Of a stretch of 64,000 nt of DNA, positions 35,443 through 46,895 are shown one piece after another. A program made the position numbers and the translations under genes. The stretch's first letter is position 1. Each line of letters starts with the position of its first letter. Source of the DNA: Limisphaerales bacterium. Its GTDB lineage: Bacteria > Patescibacteriota > Microgenomatia > UBA1400 > PJMF01. The stretch spans positions 41,874-105,873 of the forward strand of contig JBILGT010000001.1 in assembly GCA_044350895.1 (NCBI GenBank). The letters are read 5' to 3'. A model generated the notes under the pieces. It searched no databases. It had not been told where the DNA came from and worked only from the letters and a program-made list of their open reading frames with translations.

Positions 35443-35478
35443 TTGCTTTTCGAACCACCACTTGCTATAACTTTTTAC

Positions 35479-36390
35479 ATGAAGCCATACTCAGAACGTA
35501 CTCCCGACGAACAGTACAAGGATATCTTGCGAAAAATCGTGGAAGAAGGTGTTCGTGTTCCTTCTCAACAAGGTACTGATGCACTGATGTATATGGCACC
35601 GGGCTCAATGCATTTTAAACTTGAAAATGGTTTCCCAATGCTCACTGAGCGCAATCTTGCCCCAAAAGAAAATGAACGCTTGAAGGTGACAATTTGGCGC
35701 CAGGCAGTAGCGGAAATTATTGGATTCATCAATGGTGCTCGGACTCTCAAACAACTAGAGGAATTTGGGTGCTATTGGTGGGAACCATGGGGCACTGAAG
35801 CCAAGTGCAAGAAGCGCGGACTTGAAACAGGAGACTTAGGCCCAGGTTCATATGGTGCAGCATTCCATGATTTTCCAACTAGTGAAGGTGAGTCATTTAA
35901 TCAATTTAAAACGATTGTGGAACAGATCAAACAAGAGCCACAATTGAGAACACACTTTGTAACGCCATGGATTCCACAGTACACCGCACGAGTAGAAGGA
36001 CGTACTCAAAAAGTGGTAGTTTGCCCGTGTCATGGGTGGATTCACCTTCGCGTTGTGGATAATAAATTGACGCTGCATATGATGCAACGTTCTGGAGATG
36101 TACCTGTGGGCGTACCTGCAAACATGGTGCAGTATTCAGCACTTTTGATGATGATTGCACAAGCCACAGGTCTTGAAGCTTACGAGTATATTCACACAAT
36201 TTCTGATGCGCATATTTATGTTGATCAACTTGATGCAGTCAAACTAATACTAGAACGTGAATCTCGACCATTCCCAACAATGACTTTGAAAACCAAAAAT
36301 ACAGATCTTTTTAAATTCCGTCACACTGATTTTGAACTCAGTGACTATAATCCACACCCTGGAATCAAAAATATCCCAGTGGCGATTTAA
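35479..36390 (+). CDS. thyA: Thymidylate synthase (ThyA family, divergent)
   Basis: VVCPCHGW (catalytic PCH), DNKLTLHMMQRSGDVPVGVPANMVQYSALL (ThyA DGKLSCQLYQRSxDxFLGxPFNIASYALL). Asn is retained in the PANM motif. Confidence 0.7.
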   Translation: MKPYSERTPDEQYKDILRKIVEEGVRVPSQQGTDALMYMAPGSMHFKLENGFPMLTERNLAPKENERLKVTIWRQAVAEIIGFINGARTLKQLEEFGCYWWEPWGTEAKCKKRGLETGDLGPGSYGAAFHDFPTSEGESFNQFKTIVEQIKQEPQLRTHFVTPWIPQYTARVEGRTQKVVVCPCHGWIHLRVVDNKLTLHMMQRSGDVPVGVPANMVQYSALLMMIAQATGLEAYEYIHTISDAHIYVDQLDAVKLILERESRPFPTMTLKTKNTDLFKFRHTDFELSDYNPHPGIKNIPVAI

Positions 36391-36414: not shown

Positions 36415-38604
36415 GTGAAACAATTTTTTATTTGGCTAATTCTTCAGATTTTTTTCTGTTTTTATGCTGCTTCTCCGGTTGCAGCTCGATCAGAACTGTA
36501 TCCTGTCACCCCCTTTGCCCAAGTCGACGGAGAAGTAACGGGGACTGTAGATGGGCAGGCGGTGCAGTTTGAATATCACCGAACATATCATCCAGATATA
36601 GTTGGTGTGAATATGCAAACGAGCAGAGTACGTTTTGCAAGTGATGGTCCAGTTGCAATGCAGTTGAATTTTGCTACACCGATCTCAGGGCCCTATCTTC
36701 AAGGAATTGGGAGGGGATATCCACTCCAGCAAAATGGAAACCAACTTACCTTTACTCTACCTGGACCAGGACATTACTACTTTAAAGCCGGAGGACTGCA
36801 AAAAACTATTTTATTTTGGATTGATGATTTAAATGCACCAAGAACAAAGCCAGGTGACCCTAATGTCGTAGACGTCACTACTCGCGGGATTCGCAATGAT
36901 CCAAGCGCAAACCAAAAAAATGAACTCCAAGCACTAATTACTGCAGTGCCAGATGGCACCATTTTATATTTCCCGGCAGGTGTATATCGGACGGGAGGGT
37001 TGAAAATATCAAGAAAAAATTTGACACTTTTCTTTGATCGCGGCGCACTGCTAAAAGGGACTGATAACAGTGCCGATTTTTTCAAGGGACTCATTGAAAT
37101 TGAGTATGGGCGTAACATTAAGTTGACAGGGTTTGGTACGATTGATGCCAATGGTATGGTCACATATTCCAACAGTGGCGGCAGAGAAATTAAGATAAGA
37201 AACATCCAAATAGATGACTCAACTGACATTACTCTTGAAAACTTACTATTTATGGACGCAAACTCTTGGTCAATTCACGTTCATCGTAGTACCAACTTTA
37301 CTGCAAGAAATATTAAAGTTTTTGGTGGAAAAGATGGTATTGATCCTGATTCAGTGACAAATGCTCTTTTGGAAAATGTGTTTGTTCAATCAGTTGATGA
37401 CAGTATTGCTGTTAAAAGTCGTGACGTCAGTGATAACACTCCTACAAATAACGTTCGGGTAAATAAGTGTATTGTTAGTAGTGGTCGAGCTACTGCACTC
37501 AAAATTGGTACAGAAAATCGACAGCCAATTACTGGTGTAACATTTGAACACTGCGATGTGATTGATTCCGATCGGGGGATGAGTATTTACACGCAGTACG
37601 GTGGACAAATTGCAGATGTTACATACAAAAACATTCGCTTAACAGGCGTAACTGATCCATGGAAAAACATACCGTACAGTGGTGGCGGACCGAGCATAAC
37701 CAATCTTGTCTATGAAAATATCATTGTGGGATTATCAACAAATAAAGCACGGATAAATCAAGGATATCCTGGTTTAAAAAAAGTAATGCTAAAGAATATT
37801 GTAATTCACACATTTGGTGCACCTGAGGAACGAGCTGGGGCATTGCGTGCAGATGCTGGTACAAATGTAAATGCATTTGGAGTTACTGCATATTGGAACG
37901 GTAAAAAAGGTGGCTGGCGTGGTGTCTTTGAAGGGGATGGATTTGTAGAAAAAATGAATGTCGTAGAAAACGACGGAGCTGGTCCTTCAATGGAGTTCTC
38001 AGACGCAGCAGGATTACCGCCTGCCACAGTACCAGTACCGCCAGCTGAACCAACTCCTGCATGTAAAATACAAACTCAAGTGACGTGTTCAAGCAGTACT
38101 TCAGTAAGTGTGAAGTATCAATTTACCCAACAGCCAAATTTTGACTATAAGCATTTTATAGTACGCATTAATGCATATCCTGAAAATAAAGCTGAATGTA
38201 CCAATGACTCTGGACAGCAGATCGATTGGTTTTGTGGTAGGGACACAGGAAAAGGTAATGATCTACAAGCATATAGTGAAAAAGTGGTGCAGGAGACAAC
38301 TTTTACGGCTGTACCGGGTGTTCCTTATAGAGTGGGTGTTTCAATTGATGCAAAAGCAGATGGGACACGTCTCTCTACCGGGCAATGTGCTGCAATACCG
38401 GTTGATATAACGTGTACAGCAGCTGTTACTCCAACTCAGTCAAGGAAGCCAGGTGATCTTGATCGAGACAATGACGTTGATATTTTTGACTACAACAAAT
38501 TGATCGAAAATTTTGGACGAGAAAATTGTGAGATCAATTTGACCGCTAGTTGTTTGATTGATATATATGACTACTCGATTGTTTTAGCCAAGTGGGGTAC
38601 ATAA
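36415..38604 (+). CDS. Secreted right-handed beta-helix (pectin-lyase-fold/GH28-like) protein with a C-terminal dockerin
   Basis: Signal peptide. Repeated beta-helix rungs (NIQIDDSTDITLENLLFMDANSWSIHVHRSTNFTARNIKVFGG...). C-terminus GDLDRDNDVDIFDYNKLIENFG plus a degenerate second dockerin segment. Confidence 0.55.
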   Translation: MKQFFIWLILQIFFCFYAASPVAARSELYPVTPFAQVDGEVTGTVDGQAVQFEYHRTYHPDIVGVNMQTSRVRFASDGPVAMQLNFATPISGPYLQGIGRGYPLQQNGNQLTFTLPGPGHYYFKAGGLQKTILFWIDDLNAPRTKPGDPNVVDVTTRGIRNDPSANQKNELQALITAVPDGTILYFPAGVYRTGGLKISRKNLTLFFDRGALLKGTDNSADFFKGLIEIEYGRNIKLTGFGTIDANGMVTYSNSGGREIKIRNIQIDDSTDITLENLLFMDANSWSIHVHRSTNFTARNIKVFGGKDGIDPDSVTNALLENVFVQSVDDSIAVKSRDVSDNTPTNNVRVNKCIVSSGRATALKIGTENRQPITGVTFEHCDVIDSDRGMSIYTQYGGQIADVTYKNIRLTGVTDPWKNIPYSGGGPSITNLVYENIIVGLSTNKARINQGYPGLKKVMLKNIVIHTFGAPEERAGALRADAGTNVNAFGVTAYWNGKKGGWRGVFEGDGFVEKMNVVENDGAGPSMEFSDAAGLPPATVPVPPAEPTPACKIQTQVTCSSSTSVSVKYQFTQQPNFDYKHFIVRINAYPENKAECTNDSGQQIDWFCGRDTGKGNDLQAYSEKVVQETTFTAVPGVPYRVGVSIDAKADGTRLSTGQCAAIPVDITCTAAVTPTQSRKPGDLDRDNDVDIFDYNKLIENFGRENCEINLTASCLIDIYDYSIVLAKWGT

Positions 38605-38641: not shown

Positions 38642-39100
38642 ATGTCAGATGCACAATCTCGCCACGTTGATATCGATAATGCCCGTCTAGATGAGCAACG
38701 TCAAGTGATGCAAGAAATCATTGATGCAGATCATTGTCCGTTTTGTCGTGAAAATTTGGACAAATACCACAAGCAAGAAATTCTTAAAGAAGGTGAGTTT
38801 TGGCTGGTCACGAAAAACCAGTGGCCGTACGACTTCACAAAAGTCCACTTACTGCTGATTTATAAACAACATGCCACAGATCTTTCTGAGCTTGATCCAG
38901 AATCTGGCAAAGAATTGTTAGAACTTCTCCAGTGGGCACAAAAGGAATACAAAATTCCTGGTGGTGGTTGGGCAATGCGCTTTGGTGATACCGATCATTC
39001 GGCAGGAACAGTGGCACACATTCATGTGCAGTTCATCATGCCTGATCTTGAACATCCAGAGTTCAAACCAGTGCGGATTAAGATTGGGAAAAGTAAGTAA
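38642..39100 (+). CDS. HIT-family (histidine triad) nucleotide hydrolase/transferase-like protein
   Basis: VAHIHVQFI (HxHxHxx) near the C-terminus. N-terminal CPFC. Confidence 0.55.
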   Translation: MSDAQSRHVDIDNARLDEQRQVMQEIIDADHCPFCRENLDKYHKQEILKEGEFWLVTKNQWPYDFTKVHLLLIYKQHATDLSELDPESGKELLELLQWAQKEYKIPGGGWAMRFGDTDHSAGTVAHIHVQFIMPDLEHPEFKPVRIKIGKSK

Positions 39101-39152: not shown

Positions 39153-42100
39153 TTGATGCTTGCTGAACAAACGCCAACTGTATCGGGTGAATTTTTGAAA
39201 GGATTTGAGCTTCCTGAAAGATGGAAGCGTTTTAGTATATCTCGATTACTTGAAAAGAGACGAGTTGCTTCCTCTTTGAGGAACGAATACAGAGAAACTC
39301 TGCAGCAACCGTCTCCGGAGCCACTTACTCACTACCAAGATGATAATAATGAATTACATAACCTCTTTGCATACTTAGCAACTACTAGTGAGCTGGAGTT
39401 TGATACACCTAGTACGCAACTTCTCACGGGAATTGCTGAAAATATGCTTGCAGGTTCGCAGACATCAGAGCGTATCCAAGTGGTAATTATTAAGCGATCT
39501 CAACAATGCAATGCGTTTGTAACTGCCGACGGTACAATTTTTATGACGCAGGCTTTGCTAAATAAATGTACACATCTTGATGAAGCAGCAGCGGTAATCG
39601 GACATGAAGTTGGGCACATTATCAATAAAACCCATGTGCATACTAATTCAGTATATGTATTAGACCGAATGAGTGTCGCATGGGCACATGAAATGGCTGC
39701 AGATTTAGAGACTCCCCGTAAGCTTAAGCAAGCCGGATATAATTCTACAGCCCTTGCTTCCATTATAGTTAAAATCGGGAGTAACGGTCGTGATTTTGAG
39801 CATCAAGGTGCACTGATGCGAGGCTCACAAAATATTGGCCTTCATGCAGTTATTGATAATGAAGCAAGTGCTCAAGGATATCAACCAATTCCTGCAGAAC
39901 TGCATGGCAAAGTTAGTTACTCAAATTTAGAAATTCTGGATTACGCCAAGAAGCAAAATAATATTGCATTGTATAACAAGACAGTGCGAGCATTGCACTC
40001 CCATGACTTTGCCGCTGAGTATAGACGTATGCAAGCGATCAGTTTTCGTGACTCTGAGGAAAACCTCAAGGTATTGACGCAGGTTGTACTAGAACGACTT
40101 GAAGGTGTCGGATACACACATCAGCAAGCTATTTTTATACTACTCGGTTTTTCTTCTGCGGAATTTACATTTTCCCCAGGCTTTAAACTTTTTGAAGATG
40201 TAGCTGAACTTACAGAAATAATTTTGGAGATTCCTCACGTCGTGACGGATAACAACATTGAATCAAAACTTGAGTCAGCTGTCCCTGAAGTACTTAAGCC
40301 CGCCCAAATACTCTCATGCATACGCAAATTTTTTAATTCGGTACATCACAATTTGGGTACAGAGGAGTCTAAAAGAGGAAGTTTGCGAGTCAGCGAAAAT
40401 GAGCTTTTTTTGCTACTACATAATATACAAGAATTGAGAAAAAGTGATGAAAATTTTGCTAGGTTTTCTCATGTCATTGAAATCATTGATAGTGCCACTA
40501 CTGTAATTTTTCTCAAGTATATTTATTTGCGGTGCGTGGCAGAAGAAATTCCACAAGATCAACAAAAACCATTATTCCATTCTTTGTATGAAAAATATAA
40601 AGGTGAGGGGATGCATATTGTGCCAGGCACAGTTTGGGGATTTAAGGCAAGCAATGAGTATATTTCTCCTGAAAATCTTCAGTTTATGCAGTATGTGGGT
40701 GATGTACTGATGAATAGAGAACCAGAGGTAAAAGAACCACTGGTGGATGAAAAACTACAGCATTTATCAGAAAAAATGGGCCAAAGAGCAACCTCAATTA
40801 ATTATGAAGTGCTGAAGGAATTACTAGTCAAAATAAATTCGAATGAAGCCGAGAATCTTACAGATGAAAAACGTAAAGAGTATTTCTATAAATTTGCACA
40901 GCAAATTGAACAAGTGCCTTTTGCTAGTTACTACAATGTTCTCGAAGAATTAGCGGCAGAAAATAAAGGGCAGAATGCAGCAGGAAGAAAAGAATCTTTA
41001 CACGGGGCTAAACTCCCACCTACAGATAGTCATACTGCAAGCAACACCGCAATTTTTAGAATGTATGCTCTGCAAGAGGTAGCTTTTTTCTTATTTAAAA
41101 CTGATACCGATGCGTTCTATGAATGTTTGGAATACAGTTGTAATACTCCTGATATTCCTTGGGACACGCTATCTTTTGTACAAGTAACAAATCTCTGTTA
41201 CTCACTTTTAAATTTACCCAAGGGGAGCTGGGTATTAGCGGATAGAACAGGCTTTGTCCTAGAAAATTCTCTGCAACAAAAGTCTACTTGTACGGTGCTC
41301 AACTATGATCGAGTATGTAGCCTTGTACCGGTGCAGCGGTTACTGGAGCTTTCTGAACAAGAAATAACACAGCTTGGTGAAATTAGTTGGGATGCCGCAA
41401 CAATCGAAGGATTTATCGCACATGTTTCTGAAAAACAATCTGGTATGTTTAGTACACGCTCAATCTTAGATCAAGCCAGTAATAGAGATAATATTTATGC
41501 AGACAATCTGTTTACATTGATTGTCTGGAGACAGGAGCGACAGGCTTTAGTTAAGATTTTAGAACAATTTGTAAGTACAGATATTAATCGATTTTCATAT
41601 AGTTATTTTCAACAACTTCCAGACTTATATTTATTGGCGTATAGATTTTTACCCTTTGATGCTCGAAGAGAAACAATCTGTCGCAACATTGCCAATCGCT
41701 ATCTTTCAGAACCAAGTGTACAGCTTGGACGTAAAATTGATTTTTTACTTATGCACTTTGATAGGATTGGGATTGAAGGTTCATTCATTGTCGGGGAACA
41801 TATTCATACCATTGCGGATTACCAGATGTTCAGGGAAAAAGTCGGAGAGGAGAAGCTGAAAAAAATTTTGACGGGTGAGAAAGATGTAAAAGTGGTGGCA
41901 CTTTTGGACTATGCAACCTCACTAGTTACATCATTTTCTGGCGGGCTTCTTGATACGATTGATGACTCACAACAAAGTAGACGTAAGGCAACAACAGATG
42001 CTGCATATAAGTGGTTGAAAACCCTATTTGTGGACTCAAAAAAAAGTGTTTCCTATGTTCCCGATAAAGAAAAATTTGAAGTTGATTCACAAAGGCGTGA

Positions 42101-43904
42101 TTCATTTCACTCATTTGCTGATACTATTGCGGTCTTACGGTCTCTTTCACCAACTATGCGAAGTCTCATTTCACATAAATTATTGGTTGATACTGGAGGA
42201 GCATTAACAACTTTGGAAGCTCGGAGGGATCTTTCTCGGAGATTATTAGAAGGTCTACAACTCGATAAGAATACCTTACAAGGGATGTTGCTAGAAGCTG
42301 TAGTGATAGACGGTAAAGCAGAATTCATTGGTTTTCCTGCCGCTCAAATGATTGCACCGCTCTTATTTAGATCATTAGATCCGCAGGCATTGGATTACGA
42401 TACCTTGCTCGATAGTAATATTTCTGTAAAAGATTCTGACCCTCAAGCAAAAGTATTCACCCAGCAACCTAAAATCCGCGATCATATTGGAGAAGCACAG
42501 GCACGGCATATTTTGACTGCATCATCTCGTGATTTAGTAAAAGTTGGACGTGAGTATTCACTCGGTGAGTCACATACCGCTGCAGAATTTGCAGGACAAT
42601 CAGATGCAGAATATCGAGCTACCTTGGAAATGCTGGAAGGTCATTTTGTGCCACAAGAAAAGGTGGATGCACCAAAAGCCCAGTTAGGTATTGATGCCAC
42701 CACTGAGGCGCTTATTTCTGCTGCAGAGTCAAGTACAGCAGGCATTACTAGGCAATTACAACTTTCTACGCAATTTAAAAAATACCCCCCAGAATTGGAA
42801 GCACGGTTGCGACGTACCTTAGATTCCAATCCTGGACTACCAATGTTGCTAGCATGGGAGAACCTCTTCCTTTGGTCCACCCCAGAACAGGGAGATTCCC
42901 CAAAACGAGTAGCAGAAAAAGTTGCCCTTGGTGAGTACTTGCAGCAGGTTGAAATCCAGAAAAAAATTGCGGGAGGTAGTTTAAATACAATCTTTTTAGC
43001 TCACAATACTCAAACGAAAAGGGACATTGTCGCTCGTATACAGAATCCAAATGCAGAGTTTTTTGTACAAGCGGGCTATGAGCTGGTAGAAGCTGCATAT
43101 GATTACGTTTTGAAAAAAACAGGGAGAAAGTATGCCCGTGAAGTAAAAATTGGCAAGATGCTCAATGCACTAACTCAGCGATGGTGTATCAGAGATATTA
43201 ATGATCCATTCTATCTAGAAGATGATGCAAATTTCAGAAGTGTAATCGCGAGTGCAACACAAGCCAACTCACTTGATATAGAGTACTATGCACCTGAATT
43301 AGAATTCACGCAGCAAAAATTCAAAACAGAAACAGTAGCTGCCGGGACCACCGCCAATAAATTTCGCAGTGGCAAGGCAACAGCAGAACAAAAAAATTTG
43401 TCATTAGAAGCATTTTTCTATTTCTTTGAACATCAGCTAGACTTTGAAAAACACACAATTGCTAAAGATGGAACGGAATATATTTTGGTACATTCAGATC
43501 AACATCTTGGCAATTACACAGATGCTTTTGAAGAGAGTACTCTCCGCAGAGGAGTAATTGATCGCAATATGTTTTTACGCTTGGAACGACCGGATCTAAG
43601 AGTCATTCAATTGTATTTAGAACCAGATAAAGGAAGAGAATTTGCCCAAGCTTTAGTTGAACGTATTCTTGATAAAAACAAAGTACGTGGGGTGAGTAGA
43701 GCTACGTTCAAGGTCTATGTGACCTCAAAACTAATTCCAGAGTATACCCGTCAAAATTTCTCAGGTCACAGTGATGAACTCTTGCTTTTGCAAGTGGTTT
43801 TTGAAGCCTGTGCGCTCAAAGACATGGATATTCCATTGGAACTACAGCTTATGTTGCGTAACGCAGCGGCATACAAGGAATTGAAAAAAACGGTGGTTAC
43901 CTAA
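39153..43904 (+). CDS. Giant multidomain protein: N-terminal M48-like zinc metallopeptidase motif, ~1100-aa helical region, C-terminal ABC1/UbiB-like atypical kinase domain
   Basis: NAFVTADGTIFMTQALL...DEAAAVIGHEVGHI (residues about 120-156; nt about 39510-39620) is a canonical M48 signature. GGSLNTIFLAHNTQTKRDIVARIQNP (nt about 42970-43050) matches the ABC1 xASIAQVHxAxL...VAVKVQRP motif. VHSDQHLGN (nt about 43488-43511) matches the ABC1/APH catalytic loop HADPHPGN. No TM segments. Confidence 0.55.
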   Translation: MMLAEQTPTVSGEFLKGFELPERWKRFSISRLLEKRRVASSLRNEYRETLQQPSPEPLTHYQDDNNELHNLFAYLATTSELEFDTPSTQLLTGIAENMLAGSQTSERIQVVIIKRSQQCNAFVTADGTIFMTQALLNKCTHLDEAAAVIGHEVGHIINKTHVHTNSVYVLDRMSVAWAHEMAADLETPRKLKQAGYNSTALASIIVKIGSNGRDFEHQGALMRGSQNIGLHAVIDNEASAQGYQPIPAELHGKVSYSNLEILDYAKKQNNIALYNKTVRALHSHDFAAEYRRMQAISFRDSEENLKVLTQVVLERLEGVGYTHQQAIFILLGFSSAEFTFSPGFKLFEDVAELTEIILEIPHVVTDNNIESKLESAVPEVLKPAQILSCIRKFFNSVHHNLGTEESKRGSLRVSENELFLLLHNIQELRKSDENFARFSHVIEIIDSATTVIFLKYIYLRCVAEEIPQDQQKPLFHSLYEKYKGEGMHIVPGTVWGFKASNEYISPENLQFMQYVGDVLMNREPEVKEPLVDEKLQHLSEKMGQRATSINYEVLKELLVKINSNEAENLTDEKRKEYFYKFAQQIEQVPFASYYNVLEELAAENKGQNAAGRKESLHGAKLPPTDSHTASNTAIFRMYALQEVAFFLFKTDTDAFYECLEYSCNTPDIPWDTLSFVQVTNLCYSLLNLPKGSWVLADRTGFVLENSLQQKSTCTVLNYDRVCSLVPVQRLLELSEQEITQLGEISWDAATIEGFIAHVSEKQSGMFSTRSILDQASNRDNIYADNLFTLIVWRQERQALVKILEQFVSTDINRFSYSYFQQLPDLYLLAYRFLPFDARRETICRNIANRYLSEPSVQLGRKIDFLLMHFDRIGIEGSFIVGEHIHTIADYQMFREKVGEEKLKKILTGEKDVKVVALLDYATSLVTSFSGGLLDTIDDSQQSRRKATTDAAYKWLKTLFVDSKKSVSYVPDKEKFEVDSQRRDSFHSFADTIAVLRSLSPTMRSLISHKLLVDTGGALTTLEARRDLSRRLLEGLQLDKNTLQGMLLEAVVIDGKAEFIGFPAAQMIAPLLFRSLDPQALDYDTLLDSNISVKDSDPQAKVFTQQPKIRDHIGEAQARHILTASSRDLVKVGREYSLGESHTAAEFAGQSDAEYRATLEMLEGHFVPQEKVDAPKAQLGIDATTEALISAAESSTAGITRQLQLSTQFKKYPPELEARLRRTLDSNPGLPMLLAWENLFLWSTPEQGDSPKRVAEKVALGEYLQQVEIQKKIAGGSLNTIFLAHNTQTKRDIVARIQNPNAEFFVQAGYELVEAAYDYVLKKTGRKYAREVKIGKMLNALTQRWCIRDINDPFYLEDDANFRSVIASATQANSLDIEYYAPELEFTQQKFKTETVAAGTTANKFRSGKATAEQKNLSLEAFFYFFEHQLDFEKHTIAKDGTEYILVHSDQHLGNYTDAFEESTLRRGVIDRNMFLRLERPDLRVIQLYLEPDKGREFAQALVERILDKNKVRGVSRATFKVYVTSKLIPEYTRQNFSGHSDELLLLQVVFEACALKDMDIPLELQLMLRNAAAYKELKKTVVT

Positions 43905-46049: not shown

Positions 46050-46895
46050 TTACTGCTGAGAATCGATCACGCGAATGATCTCAACTCCAGCTTGCTTGAG
46101 AACTCGCTCGCCATCAAGCATGGCATAGCCTTTTTGGTAGAAGACACGTGTAAGTCCAGCATGGGCAATCAATTTGGCACACGGAGGGCAGGGGAAGTCA
46201 GTAACATACAGATCCGCACCTGACAAGTTTGTTCCCGCTGCGGCTGCCTCAGCAATCAGCTTTGCTTCGGCATGAATGGCCGTGTTGAGTTCAATATGAT
46301 CGCCTTTATGAAAATGTGCCCGAGCGTCTCCTTCTGCATACGGTTGTTGTTCAGAAGGGAGGTGCGTGTTGTGTGTTTGGGCAAGAATTGTGTTCTCTCT
46401 GACAGCCACTGCACCCACTTGGCGCCACCAGTCTGAGCTCTTGTTTCCCTCAAGAGATGCAAGCTCCATGAATTTTTTATCCACTCCTGCAGATGAAATT
46501 GTTTGATCAGGACTGGGAGTGAGTTCTGCTGCCGCACTTTTCTTATCCCAGCGCAAGAATATTGAACTTTTTTCAATGGTGCAGTTGGCGAGGTATTTGT
46601 GGGCAACTTCGGTGGTGACCACTTCATCAGGAATTATCACAGTGGCGTGAGCAGCGTTAAGTTGGTGCAAAAGTTCTTCAGAAACAATCTGTACGTCATC
46701 AAAAATGTTCCAGCTGAGGACTGCCTTCTGAACGAGCTCTTCAGATATGGCCCGTACTTCTTTATGCACCGGCGTAAATTCCTGAGCAATAGAAGCGGGG
46801 AGGATGTACAGTGTTCTGGCAGACAAGTTCTGGCTAAACAGCTGCACATAACCTTGATGTAAAACTGGAATATATGCAAGAATAACTGTGGACAT
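46050..46895 (-). CDS. CMP/dCMP deaminase zinc-binding domain protein with a ~130-aa N-terminal extension
   Basis: HAEAKLIAEA...PCPPCAKLIAHAG (H-A-E ... PCxxC). Confidence 0.6.
   Translation of the reverse strand: MSTVILAYIPVLHQGYVQLFSQNLSARTLYILPASIAQEFTPVHKEVRAISEELVQKAVLSWNIFDDVQIVSEELLHQLNAAHATVIIPDEVVTTEVAHKYLANCTIEKSSIFLRWDKKSAAAELTPSPDQTISSAGVDKKFMELASLEGNKSSDWWRQVGAVAVRENTILAQTHNTHLPSEQQPYAEGDARAHFHKGDHIELNTAIHAEAKLIAEAAAAGTNLSGADLYVTDFPCPPCAKLIAHAGLTRVFYQKGYAMLDGERVLKQAGVEIIRVIDSQQ

What the first reader, a model, noticed from the sequence alone, without database searches (positions are those of the whole stretch)
39153..43904. 1583-aa protein fusing an M48-type metallopeptidase motif to an ABC1/UbiB-type atypical kinase domain
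- Seen in sequence: a single uninterrupted 4.75 kb ORF. It carries a textbook M48 signature (NAF...G.I....LL...DEAAAVIGHEVGHI) near residue 150. About 1100 aa of mostly helical sequence with no recognisable domain follow. The kinase-like region is near the C-terminus: G-G-S-L-N-T-I-F-L-A...IVARIQNP (the ABC1 ATP-binding signature) and VHSDQHLGN (the catalytic loop).
- Established knowledge: M48 peptidases (HtpX/Ste24) are normally polytopic membrane enzymes. ABC1/UbiB kinases are normally small stand-alone proteins tied to quinone biosynthesis or lipid homeostasis. This ORF has no TM helices and is huge, so it fits neither role.
- Inference: a peptidase-kinase giant protein in a reduced genome is a candidate secreted or host-directed effector, or a novel signalling or defence protein. 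A HIT-family nucleotide-binding gene lies immediately upstream and co-directional.
Basis: partly seen in the sequence, partly recalled or inferred. Interest (0 to 1): 0.72.

Follow-up and report, generated by a model that had tools for sequence, protein, structure and literature searches.

The report
M48 protease fused to UbiB-like kinase
This gene encodes a 1,582-residue soluble protein from an ultra-small (CPR) bacterium that joins a zinc protease to an unusual UbiB/ABC1-type kinase-like domain through a long helical scaffold; the design recurs in at least 117 diverged relatives, has not to our knowledge been described, and could show what this poorly understood kinase family does.

Summary

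This is a family, not a one-off or a chimera. An exhaustive search found 443 representatives, and 117 of 118 full-length ones carry both domains with near-invariant catalytic residues. The kinase module differs from canonical UbiB: RxLQ replaces KxGQ, GGGS replaces the Ala-rich loop, and the window protein has Arg at the beta3 Lys position, as do 18 of 114.

The HIT neighbour is unrelated. The closest genome keeps thyA, HIT, ACS and the dCMP deaminase gene in order but lacks this gene. The gene is accessory and fast-evolving (31.6% identity where a housekeeping neighbour is 88%). Relatives in Omnitrophota embed the same cassette in giant proteins, at least two of which have signal peptides.

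Best reading: a nucleotide-gated protease. Its cellular role, intracellular or host-directed, is unresolved.

The parts
39153..43904 (+). Whole gene. It is 1583 aa from the TTG at 39153; the likely true start is the ATG at 39156 (1582 aa). Its stop overlaps the convergent ACS gene by 8 nt.
   Evidence: The identical protein was called on three independent assemblies.
39330..40142 (+). M48 zinc-metallopeptidase domain, residues ~60-330. The Pfam core is 94-179 (nt 39432-39689).
   Evidence: Pfam PF01435: 57.1 bits, E = 2.8e-15. The AF2 model has pLDDT 72.6 overall and 80-95 in the core. Foldseek: BepA 6AIT/6SAR E = 9e-6, 3C37 E = 1e-4, both probability 1.0.
39603..39617 (+). HEVGH (H151, E152, H155): two zinc ligands and the catalytic Glu.
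   Evidence: H151, E152 and H155 are each conserved in 112 of 114 relatives.
39687..39704 (+). HEMAAD (H179-D184). E180 is the predicted third zinc ligand (the ExxAD motif of M48).
   Evidence: Aligns with ENQAD of 3C37 and HEYQAD of Ste24p. E180 is conserved in 113 of 114 and D184 in 112 of 114.
40143..41672 (+). Poorly conserved alpha-helical region, residues ~331-840. It has the lowest GC in the gene (0.369). Candidate target-recognition scaffold.
   Evidence: Conservation map. The predicted secondary structure is almost entirely helical. No Pfam match. GC.
41673..42392 (+). Conserved alpha-helical block, residues ~841-1080. It is family-specific and travels with the kinase module in atypical relatives.
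   Evidence: Conservation map. Model pLDDT is mostly 75-88. P0147 and P0154 match this block together with the kinase. Foldseek finds only generic alpha-solenoids.
42693..43901 (+). UbiB/ABC1-type kinase-like module, residues ~1181-1583, including an N-terminal KxGQ-like helical sub-domain.
42750..42761 (+). RQLQ (R1200-Q1203), the positional equivalent of the UbiB KxGQ motif.
   Evidence: Aligned to IKFGQ of E. coli UbiB. Position 1200 is R in 107 and K in 6 of 114; Q1203 is conserved in 114 of 114.
42966..42989 (+). IAGGSLNT: a Gly-rich nucleotide-binding loop where canonical UbiB has its Ala-rich loop.
   Evidence: Aligned to ASASIAQV of UbiB. G1275 is conserved in 113 and S1276 in 114 of 114. 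This loop has low confidence in the model.
43035..43037 (+). R1295, at the position of the beta3 (VAIK) lysine.
   Evidence: K in 96 and R in 18 of 114. The R subgroup includes the window protein and its nearest relatives, and keeps all other catalytic residues.
43491..43514 (+). HSDQHLGN catalytic loop (D1449, N1454).
   Evidence: Aligned to HADMHPGN of UbiB. D1449 is conserved in 112, G1453 in 114 and N1454 in 114 of 114.
43554..43565 (+). VIDR. D1470 is the metal-binding Asp, the equivalent of DFG.
   Evidence: Aligned to IDCG of UbiB. D1470 is conserved in 113 and R1471 in 110 of 114.

Best explanation
SHOWN:
- The gene encodes a soluble protein of about 1,580 aa belonging to a conserved family found in Patescibacteria, mostly Microgenomates-type.
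- The family has a fixed order of parts: a BepA/3C37-like M48 zinc peptidase (H151, E152, H155, E180); about 850 residues of alpha-helical scaffold, with a fast-evolving half (~331-840) and a conserved half (~841-1080); and a divergent UbiB/ABC1-type kinase-like domain.
- Both active sites are under strong purifying selection.
- The gene is accessory: it is absent from the syntenic site in the closest genome, it diverges fast, and it has no conserved operon partner.

INFERRED:
- It works as a single-chain, nucleotide-gated protease inside the CPR cell, probably at the inner face of the membrane. Both parent families act on membrane or lipid surfaces.
- The UbiB-like module binds ATP and acts as the switch.
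- That module naturally carries a Gly-rich loop and RxLQ in place of the Ala-rich loop and KxGQ. Similar engineered changes unlock autophosphorylation in ADCK3. So the module may transfer phosphate, to itself or to a substrate, and not only hydrolyse ATP.
- The variable helical scaffold selects the target, and the M48 domain cleaves it.
For: - Domain identities: M48; UbiB-type.
- Obligate fusion: 117 of 118 full-length representatives carry both modules. Order and spacing are kept even inside the Omnitrophota giants.
- Catalytic residues are near-invariant in 114 sequences that are about 27-35% identical overall.
- No TM helix or signal peptide in 114 members.
- Variable and conserved blocks of the scaffold.
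- Accessory and fast-evolving.
- No conserved neighbour.
- UbiB biochemistry: ATPase activated by cardiolipin membranes and phenols; the KxGQ domain binds the membrane; A-to-G and KxGQ mutants gain autophosphorylation and lose ATPase activity (10.1101/149823; PMC8956952).
- Independent association of the two families as separate proteins on plastoglobules and cyanoglobules.
Against: - No experiment bears on this protein. Coupling between the two domains is inferred only from their obligate fusion.
- The N-lobe loop and beta3 strand of the kinase model have low confidence (pLDDT < 50).
- Pfam finds no ABC1 hit on the window protein itself.
- The window protein has Arg at the beta3 Lys position. 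In classical kinases that change abolishes phosphotransfer.
- The intracellular location rests only on the absence of Sec-type signals.
- Two relatives that carry the same cassette do have signal peptides.
Confidence: 0.5

Rival explanations
1. Host-directed effector. The protein is delivered from the episymbiont into or onto its host cell by a non-Sec route, such as the Patescibacterial type IV secretion or pilus machinery. There the UbiB-like module engages host membrane lipids or quinones, and the M48 domain cleaves host membrane-associated proteins.
For: - The gene is accessory and diverges very fast: 31.6% identity against 88% for AdoHcy hydrolase between the same two genomes. It is missing at the syntenic site of the closest genome.
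- The fast-evolving central scaffold is typical of proteins involved in conflict.
- The cassette is found in Patescibacteria and, among the few named atypical relatives, in Omnitrophota. Both are ultra-small, host-associated lineages (my own knowledge).
- P0147 (named Omnitrophota) and P0152 (source unnamed) carry the cassette behind clear signal peptides. P0147 does so within a multi-enzyme giant that also has extra HExxH modules and a JAMM-like motif.
- CPR bacteria lack quinones (established knowledge), so a UbiB-like domain has no obvious endogenous substrate of the canonical kind.
Against: - No signal peptide or TM helix in any of 114 CPR-type members.
- No secretion-system genes are conserved nearby.
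- No experimental or proteomic evidence of export.
- Fast divergence also fits intracellular conflict systems or paralogy.
Confidence: 0.25
2. Intracellular conflict or defence protein, for example anti-phage. It would follow a sensor-switch-effector logic like STAND/Avs proteins: the variable helical scaffold senses an invader protein, the kinase-like ATPase switches, and the M48 protease executes.
For: - Accessory, patchy and fast-evolving.
- A variable scaffold sits between two invariant enzymatic ends.
- Two loci lie among toxin-antitoxin, AbiEii, Schlafen-like and AAA_14/DUF4143 genes.
- It is a single-gene system with no partner.
Against: - No PADLOC model matches the protein.
- Most neighbourhoods are housekeeping, and defence-type hits among 121 neighbours are sparse.
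- There is no P-loop STAND NTPase. No known defence system uses an M48 plus UbiB pair, as far as PADLOC 2.0 and my literature searches show.
Confidence: 0.15
3. The kinase-like domain in this particular protein is a non-catalytic ligand or nucleotide sensor (a pseudo-enzyme) because the beta3 Lys is Arg. Alternatively, the two domains are merely tethered and act independently.
For: - R1295 replaces the canonical Lys. In classical protein kinases a K-to-R change is the standard kinase-dead mutation (established knowledge).
- Pfam ABC1 fails on this protein.
Against: - All 18 Arg variants keep D1449, N1454, D1470, Q1203, S1276 and E1393, which decayed pseudo-enzymes usually do not.
- The position is strictly basic (K or R) in 114 of 114.
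- Obligate co-inheritance of both domains in 117 of 118 argues against independence.
Confidence: 0.07
4. Artefact: an assembly chimera, a fused gene call or a pseudogene.
For: None found.
Against: - The identical 1,582-aa protein with the same neighbours occurs on independent JGI, Logan and NCBI assemblies.
- The same architecture occurs in 117 of 118 full-length representatives from many samples.
- There is no internal stop.
- Catalytic residues are conserved at both ends.
Confidence: 0.01

Closest known systems
UbiB / ABC1 / ADCK atypical kinase family (Pfam PF03109; COQ8A/ADCK3 structure 4PED; M. tuberculosis Rv3197 structure 5YJZ; E. coli UbiB)
   Same: - hhalign against E. coli UbiB gives 94% over 262 columns and includes the family-specific N-terminal KxGQ helical sub-domain.
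- The catalytic-loop pattern HxDxHxGN, the metal-binding Asp and the beta3 basic residue followed by xxxP are shared.
- One family member passes the Pfam ABC1 threshold, and P0146 bridges the two families.
   Different: - RxLQ replaces the invariant KxGQ.
- A Gly-rich GGGS loop replaces the Ala-rich loop.
- DRS replaces DFG/DCG.
- There is no membrane anchor.
- It is fused to a protease and an ~850-aa scaffold.
- It occurs in organisms without quinone biosynthesis (established knowledge for CPR).
- Sequence is too far from canonical UbiB for PDB sequence searches, for Pfam on the window protein, or for canonical UbiB proteins to dominate the exhaustive search. That search found only 443 hits in 1.84 billion proteins.
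Soluble M48 peptidases: E. coli BepA/YfgC (6AIT, 6SAR) and Geobacter Q74D82 (3C37)
   Same: - They are the best fold matches to the N-terminal model.
- HExxH plus a downstream ExxAD Glu ligand are shared.
- The catalytic domain is soluble and, as in BepA, is followed by a helical-repeat domain.
   Different: - BepA is a periplasmic protein of about 490 aa with a signal peptide and a TPR domain that docks on the BAM complex. This protein has no signal peptide, is three times longer and ends in a kinase-like domain.
- Only the first half of the Pfam M48 profile aligns strongly (positions 10-99 of 186).
- The third ligand lies only 25 residues after HExxH.
Plastoglobule and cyanoglobule pair: M48 peptidase PGM48 (Synechocystis sll1280) with ABC1K kinases (ABC1K1/3/6/7; slr1919, sll0005, sll1770)
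   Same: - The same two protein families sit together on one lipid surface and are co-expressed: PGM48 with ABC1K7 and ABC1K3.
- The cyanoglobule proteome holds both families.
- PGM48 abundance at plastoglobules rises in an ABC1K6 complementation line.
- The CPR fusion would be a 'Rosetta-stone' version of this association.
   Different: - There they are separate proteins on a lipid droplet in photosynthetic organisms with prenylquinones. Here they form one polypeptide in a non-photosynthetic, quinone-less bacterium.
- I did not test whether the CPR M48 domain is specifically related to PGM48. The parallel is an analogy, not shown homology of the system.
ATP-dependent single-chain proteases (FtsH: AAA+ plus M41 zinc protease; Lon)
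   Same: The logic is the same: a nucleotide-using module and a protease in one chain. For FtsH the action is also at the membrane.
   Different: The folds are unrelated in both halves. There is no AAA+ domain and no evidence of oligomeric chamber formation. This is a comparison of proposed mechanism only.

Membership tests
Peptidase family M48 (Pfam PF01435 / MEROPS M48) | Pfam model score above the gathering threshold | tested here: met
   57.1 bits against a 20.3 cut-off, E = 2.8e-15. All six aligned members hit. Only profile positions 10-99 of 186 align strongly.
Peptidase family M48 (Pfam PF01435 / MEROPS M48) | HExxH zinc-binding and catalytic motif | tested here: met
   HEVGH at residues 151-155. 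Conserved in 112 of 114 relatives.
Peptidase family M48 (Pfam PF01435 / MEROPS M48) | Third zinc ligand: a Glu in a downstream ExxAD-type motif | tested here: met
   H179-E-M-A-A-D184 aligns with ENQAD of 3C37 and HEYQAD of Ste24p. E180 is conserved in 113 of 114. Metal binding itself was not tested.
Peptidase family M48 (Pfam PF01435 / MEROPS M48) | M48 three-dimensional fold | tested here: met
   Foldseek on the AF2 model: BepA E = 9e-6, 3C37 E = 1e-4 (TM 0.57 on the target), ZMPSTE24 probability 0.99. Model pLDDT is 72.6 overall and the core is 80-95.
Membrane-embedded M48 subfamilies (HtpX, Ste24/ZMPSTE24, Oma1) | Transmembrane helices flanking or forming the catalytic chamber | tested here: not met
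   The window protein has no hydrophobic 19-residue window above 1.6. Only 1 of 114 relatives exceeds 1.8.
BepA-type periplasmic M48-TPR proteases | N-terminal signal peptide (periplasmic location) and a C-terminal TPR domain | tested here: not met
   No signal-like N-terminus in 114 members. No TPR Pfam hit. A helical domain does follow the peptidase, as in BepA.
UbiB / ABC1 / ADCK family (Pfam PF03109) | Pfam ABC1 model score above the gathering threshold | tested here: not met
   The window protein has no hit even at E <= 10. At family level, P0003 scores 29.2 bits (cut-off 22.9), P0002 scores 21.7, and three others are weak. P0146, a family-profile hit at E = 1e-48, scores 61.8 bits.
UbiB / ABC1 / ADCK family (Pfam PF03109) | UbiB-type protein-kinase-like fold, including the N-terminal KxGQ helical sub-domain | tested here: met
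   [not shown]
UbiB / ABC1 / ADCK family (Pfam PF03109) | Invariant KxGQ motif | tested here: not met
   The aligned positions read R-Q-L-Q. In the family the first position is R in 107 and K in 6, the Gly position is L/M/I, and the Gln is conserved in 114 of 114. The basic residue and the Gln are kept; the Lys and Gly are not.
UbiB / ABC1 / ADCK family (Pfam PF03109) | Ala-rich nucleotide-binding loop in place of the Gly-rich loop of protein kinases | tested here: not met
   The loop is (G/A)GGS: G1273 in 108, G1274 in 96, G1275 in 113, S1276 in 114 of 114. It aligns to ASAS of E. coli UbiB.
UbiB / ABC1 / ADCK family (Pfam PF03109) | Catalytic residues of the kinase-like core: beta3 Lys, catalytic-loop Asp and Asn, metal-binding Asp | tested here: inconclusive
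   D1449, N1454 and D1470 are present and near-invariant. The beta3 position is Arg in the window protein and in 18 of 114, and Lys in 96. The identity of the alphaC acidic partner (D1348 or D1351) is uncertain by register.
UbiB / ABC1 / ADCK family (Pfam PF03109) | Membrane anchor and functional link to prenylquinone biosynthesis | tested here: not met
   No TM helix. No ubi or men genes among 121 neighbours of 17 loci. Whole genomes were not surveyed.
Known anti-phage defence systems (PADLOC-DB 2.0) | Match to any defence-protein model | tested here: not met
   No hit for the window protein, P0003 or P0004 at E <= 0.01.
STAND/Avs-type NTPase sensors | Central P-loop STAND NTPase (NB-ARC/NACHT) domain | tested here: not met
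   No such Pfam or PADLOC hit. The nucleotide-binding module is a kinase-like fold.

The most novel reading that the evidence does not exclude
The M48-scaffold-UbiB cassette is a host-directed or conflict weapon shared by two unrelated lineages of ultra-small, host-dependent bacteria (Patescibacteria and Omnitrophota). In it, a naturally 'unlocked' UbiB-type kinase (Gly-rich loop, RxLQ) is a true phosphotransferase that gates an M48 protease on host membrane targets. The fusion would also be a Rosetta stone showing that UbiB/ABC1 kinases and M48 proteases act as one functional unit, as is suspected on plastoglobules.
Probability: 0.2. Interest if true: 0.8.

Novelty: new variant of a known kind. 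Interest (0 to 1): 0.6.

Why it matters
- **UbiB biochemistry.** UbiB/ABC1/ADCK proteins are ancient, linked to disease (COQ8A ataxia, COQ8B nephrotic syndrome) and still enigmatic. It is debated whether they are ATPases, lipid 'extractases', decarboxylation factors or real protein kinases. This family is a natural variant carrying the kind of substitutions that unlock autophosphorylation in engineered ADCK3: a Gly-rich loop and an altered KxGQ. It is soluble, has no TM anchor, and is covalently tied to a candidate output enzyme. That makes it a tractable model for asking what a UbiB-type domain does to a partner.
- **An M48-ABC1K partnership.** The obligate fusion gives independent genomic support for a functional partnership between M48 proteases and ABC1 kinases. 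So far that link is seen only as co-localisation and co-expression on plastoglobules and cyanoglobules.
- **CPR biology.** This is a large, accessory, fast-evolving protein with two intact active sites, which makes it a candidate player in host interaction or conflict. Public annotation calls it only 'M48 family metalloprotease' or 'hypothetical protein'.

Tried and rejected
- **Word-indexed homologue searches** badly under-sampled the family: 6 hits for the full protein and 1 for the C-terminal profile. The exhaustive HMM search was needed.
- **PDB sequence searches** with the protein or family profiles never reached ADCK3.
- **Pfam on the isolated middle and C-terminal thirds** of the window protein found nothing.
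- **Splitting the two structure jobs** as residues 1-400 and 384-1583 covered the whole protein, but there is no clean stand-alone model of the kinase domain.
- **HIT-gene linkage** is rejected.
- **A conserved operon partner** is rejected: no neighbour family occurs in more than 3 of 17 loci.
- **Defence-system membership** is rejected at the level of known models.
- **Assembly chimera** is rejected.
- **Literature:** searches for M48 with ABC1 in CPR, and for UbiB in Patescibacteria, found nothing on this architecture. Bhuiyan et al. 2016 on PGM48 was not available.
- **A canonical quinone-pathway role for the UbiB-like domain** is judged unlikely. There are no ubi or men neighbours, no membrane anchor, and CPR lack quinones. 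Whole genomes could not be surveyed.
Full report
**1. The observation**

The window holds a single uninterrupted ORF at 39153..43904 on the + strand, 1583 aa from a TTG start. An ATG follows one codon later at 39156. The public gene call for the identical protein (P0001) is 1582 aa, so ATG 39156 is the likely start.

- HEVGH at residues 151-155
- IAGGSLNT at 1272-1279
- IVARIQNPN at 1292-1300
- HSDQHLGN at 1447-1454

The protein has no hydrophobic stretch compatible with a TM helix and no signal peptide. A HIT-type gene lies 55 nt upstream on the same strand.

**2. The N-terminal domain is an M48 peptidase of the soluble kind**

- Pfam PF01435 matches residues 94-179 at E = 2.8e-15, 57.1 bits against a cut-off of 20.3. 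All six aligned family members match.
- A family profile hits the soluble M48 peptidase 3C37 at E = 4e-8. A second aligned stretch places the family's HE(x)xx(A/S)D motif (H179-D184) on ENQAD of 3C37 and on HEYQAD of Ste24p. That is the motif holding the third zinc ligand.
- An AlphaFold2 model of residues 1-400 has pLDDT 72.6 overall and 80-95 in the catalytic core. Its best PDB matches are E. coli BepA (E = 9e-6, probability 1.0) and 3C37 (E = 1e-4, TM 0.57 on the target). The membrane enzyme ZMPSTE24 follows.

So the fold is M48, and it is closest to the soluble members. BepA is itself a peptidase followed by a helical-repeat domain.

**3. The C-terminal domain is a divergent UbiB/ABC1-type kinase-like domain**

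Pfam reports no ABC1 hit on the window protein, even on the isolated C-terminus at E <= 10. PDB sequence searches do not reach ADCK3. Four other lines of evidence agree.

(a) Five of the six family members give co-linear ABC1 hits. P0003 is above the gathering threshold at 29.2 bits against 22.9, covering profile positions 41-229 of 244.

(b) P0146 is a 690-aa relative. It matches the family profile at E = 1e-48 in a library of 1.84 billion proteins, and it scores 61.8 bits (E = 7e-17) on Pfam ABC1. It therefore bridges the two families.

(c) hhalign of a 114-sequence family profile against E. coli UbiB gives 94.2% probability and E = 1.1e-7 over 262 columns. The motifs align as follows:

| E. 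coli UbiB | This family |
|---|---|
| IKFGQMLSTRRDLFPP (KxGQ segment) | vRxLQlaxQxxxFsP |
| ASASIAQV | GGGSLxTT |
| VVIKVIRPD | vViKmlNPN |
| HADMHPGN | HSDPHxGN |
| IDCG | IDR |

Caveats:
- The model is only moderately confident (mean pLDDT 66.5).
- The nucleotide-binding loop and beta3 strand are below 50.

**4. The middle region**

Residues ~331-1180 are predicted to be almost entirely alpha-helical and match no Pfam family. Foldseek finds only generic alpha-solenoid proteins. Conservation across 114 relatives splits the region in two: a poorly conserved part (~331-840, which also has the lowest GC, 0.369) and a well-conserved block (~841-1080) next to the kinase module.

**5. It is a family, not a one-off, and not a chimera**

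The word-indexed search found only six relatives at 27-31% identity. The named ones come from Candidatus Daviesbacteria.

The exhaustive HMM search used residues 384-1583 as the profile. It found 443 representatives (50%-identity clusters) at E <= 1e-3 and 168 at E <= 1e-30. Most are 1,500-1,700 aa with the match starting near residue 400.

Of the 118 representatives of at least 1,400 aa, 117 carry the N-terminal module and all 118 carry the C-terminal module.

The identical window gene, with the same neighbours, occurs on independent JGI, Logan and NCBI assemblies.

Named carriers are the Microgenomates group, Daviesbacteria, Levyibacteriota, Curtissbacteria and Moraniibacteriota. Several 'uncultured Gammaproteobacteria' MAG labels are unreliable. 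One of them (L015) is the same contig as L001, and the protein it encodes is named Daviesbacteria by NCBI.

All named relatives of the window's own neighbour gene (ADP-forming acetyl-CoA synthetase) are Patescibacteria. The window is therefore from a CPR genome.

**6. Both active sites are under purifying selection**

Counts are from 114 full-length representatives that are only about 27-35% identical overall.

| Module | Residue | Conserved in |
|---|---|---|
| M48 | H151, E152, H155 | 112 each |
| M48 | E180 | 113 |
| M48 | D184 | 112 |
| KxGQ-like | R1200 | 107 R, 6 K |
| KxGQ-like | Q1203 | 114 |
| Nucleotide loop | G1275 | 113 |
| Nucleotide loop | S1276 | 114 |
| Kinase core | E1393 | 113 |
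| Kinase core | D1449 | 112 |
| Kinase core | N1454 | 114 |
| Kinase core | D1470 | 113 |

The beta3 'VAIK' position is Lys in 96 and Arg in 18. The window protein and its three nearest relatives belong to the Arg subgroup, and that subgroup keeps every other catalytic residue. The position is thus strictly basic. The Arg variant is a coherent subgroup and not a decayed pseudo-enzyme. In classical protein kinases, however, K-to-R abolishes phosphotransfer (established knowledge).

**7. How it differs from canonical UbiB**

Two hallmarks of UbiB proteins are the invariant KxGQ motif and an Ala-rich loop in place of the Gly-rich loop (10.1101/149823; PMC8956952). This family has RxLQ and (G/A)GGS instead. 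It also lacks any membrane anchor.

The same signature (RxLQ, GGGS, K-x-x-NPN, HSDxHxGN, IDR) recurs in:
- stand-alone proteins of about 650 aa (P0146, P0148)
- P0152 (2,060 aa), whose source is unnamed
- the Omnitrophota giants P0147 and P0141

So this is a distinct UbiB-like subfamily, and the M48 fusion is its most populous architecture.

In ADCK3, an A-to-G change in the Ala triad, and KxGQ mutations, unlock autophosphorylation and lower ATPase activity. By inference, this natural Gly-rich, RxLQ variant may be a genuine phosphotransferase.

**8. Genomic context**

The HIT gene is not linked to this gene. None of the homologues examined has a HIT neighbour. Clustering all neighbour ORFs of 17 loci finds no family shared by more than three loci. 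Pfam and PADLOC scans of 121 neighbours show mostly unrelated housekeeping genes and only scattered defence-type hits.

In the closest related genome (a 1.37-Mb contig), the following genes keep the same order:
- thyA, 86% identity
- HIT, 75%
- ACS, 73%
- dCMP deaminase, 66%

The large gene is absent there, and so is the adjacent GH28 gene. An unrelated 288-aa gene sits between HIT and ACS. The gene is therefore accessory.

It also diverges unusually fast. Between two Daviesbacteria genomes whose AdoHcy hydrolases are 88% identical, the two copies of this protein are 31.6% identical. They may be paralogues. Either way, this is not core-gene behaviour.

**9. Relatives outside CPR**

P0147 (5,745 aa) and P0154 (3,306 aa) are named Omnitrophota. 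P0152 (2,060 aa) has no source name. All three contain the M48 module and the kinase module in the same order, roughly 800-1,150 residues apart.

P0147 and P0152 begin with clear signal peptides. P0147 also carries further HExxH modules and a JAMM-like HNHPGEGLVPSPED motif, both read by eye. P0154 adds an HATPase_c domain. This makes an extracytoplasmic or host-directed role plausible for those relatives.

**10. Mechanism**

Shown:
- two intact catalytic modules
- obligate co-inheritance in a fixed order
- a variable and a conserved scaffold between them
- a soluble protein
- accessory, fast-evolving behaviour

Inferred: a nucleotide-gated protease. The UbiB-like module binds ATP and switches, possibly by phosphotransfer. 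The variable scaffold selects the target. The M48 domain cleaves it.

Both parent families act on membrane or lipid surfaces:
- COQ8 is activated by cardiolipin membranes through its KxGQ domain.
- UbiB is proposed to extract quinone precursors from the membrane, and a recent preprint reports that it supports an ATP-dependent decarboxylation.
- HtpX, Oma1, BepA, Ste24 and PGM48 act on membrane-associated proteins (established knowledge).

I therefore expect this protein to act at a membrane surface. M48 peptidase PGM48/sll1280 and ABC1K kinases co-reside and are co-expressed on plastoglobules and cyanoglobules. That is an independent hint that the two families work together.

I cannot decide where the CPR protein acts. 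The lack of any export signal in 114 members favours the producer's cytoplasm. The accessory, fast-evolving behaviour and the signal-bearing relatives keep the host-directed reading alive. An intracellular conflict or defence role is a third option, with no direct support.

**11. Novelty and verdict**

Both domains belong to known superfamilies. Public annotation already says 'M48 family metalloprotease'. The following were not found in my literature searches:
- the conserved M48-scaffold-UbiB architecture
- the distinct RxLQ/GGGS UbiB-like subfamily
- its restriction to ultra-small host-associated lineages

I rate this a new variant of a known kind. The domain assignments are solid, the mechanism is weakly supported, and interest is moderate to high.

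Noticed in passing
window 36415-38604 (+): A 729-aa protein with a signal-peptide-like N-terminus, a GH28/pectate-lyase-type beta-helix (Pfam E = 3.9e-19) and a C-terminal Asp-rich segment (GDLDRDNDVDIFDYNKL) that looks dockerin-like by eye. Like the large gene, it is absent from the syntenic site of the closest related genome (L022).
   Followed up: partly
window 38642-39100 (+): The HIT-family protein has AHIHVQ (HxHxQ) instead of the classical HxHxH. By my own knowledge that suggests the GalT or Ap4A-phosphorylase/ATP-adenylyltransferase branch; NCBIfam gives a weak hit to ATP adenylyltransferase. It is 75% identical to, and syntenic with, a gene in L022 next to thyA.
   Followed up: partly
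window 35443-36390 and 46050-46895; L022 3755-6433: A conserved pyrimidine/thymidylate-metabolism neighbourhood surrounds the insertion site: thyA and dCMP deaminase in the window, plus DHFR, dUTPase and thymidylate kinase nearby in the related genome.
   Followed up: no
window 43897-43904: The stop region of the large gene overlaps the 3' end of the convergent ADP-forming acetyl-CoA synthetase gene by 8 nt, so no intergenic terminator can lie between them.
   Followed up: no
P0147 (5,745 aa, Candidatus Omnitrophota MAG, MDP2905783.1): A giant protein with a signal peptide. It contains the whole M48-scaffold-kinase cassette (M48 at ~752-937, kinase at ~1900-2337), further HExxH motifs at 2805 and 3550, a JAMM-like HNHPGEGLVPSPED motif, and repeated 'GGMPEELIRARQER' linker segments. 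It looks like a multi-enzyme secreted protein.
   Followed up: partly
L015 (CAZCNP010000003.1) and other 'binchicken' MAG loci L006-L009, L014, L017: These records are titled 'uncultured Gammaproteobacteria', 'Pseudomonadales' or 'Ectothiorhodospiraceae' but encode this CPR-type protein. L015 is the same contig as L001, and the protein it encodes (P0004) is named Candidatus Daviesbacteria by NCBI. The organism labels appear unreliable.
   Followed up: partly
L001 1-7820 and 12876-17308; L004 1211-1579 and 9878-10761: Two homologue loci lie among toxin-antitoxin and Abi-type genes (YafQ, PIN-MazE, HicAB, AbiEii), Schlafen/AlbA_2-HATPase_c_4 genes, an AAA_14/DUF4143 ATPase immediately upstream in both, and a bAvd-like (23S rRNA IVP) gene in L004. 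This pattern is not seen at the other loci.
   Followed up: partly
L003 11427-12596; L009 8000-9169; L014 959-2470: A GAF-domain histidine kinase lies next to the large gene in 3 of 17 loci. No neighbour family recurs more often (two others also reach 3 loci), but this is too infrequent to call a partner.
   Followed up: no
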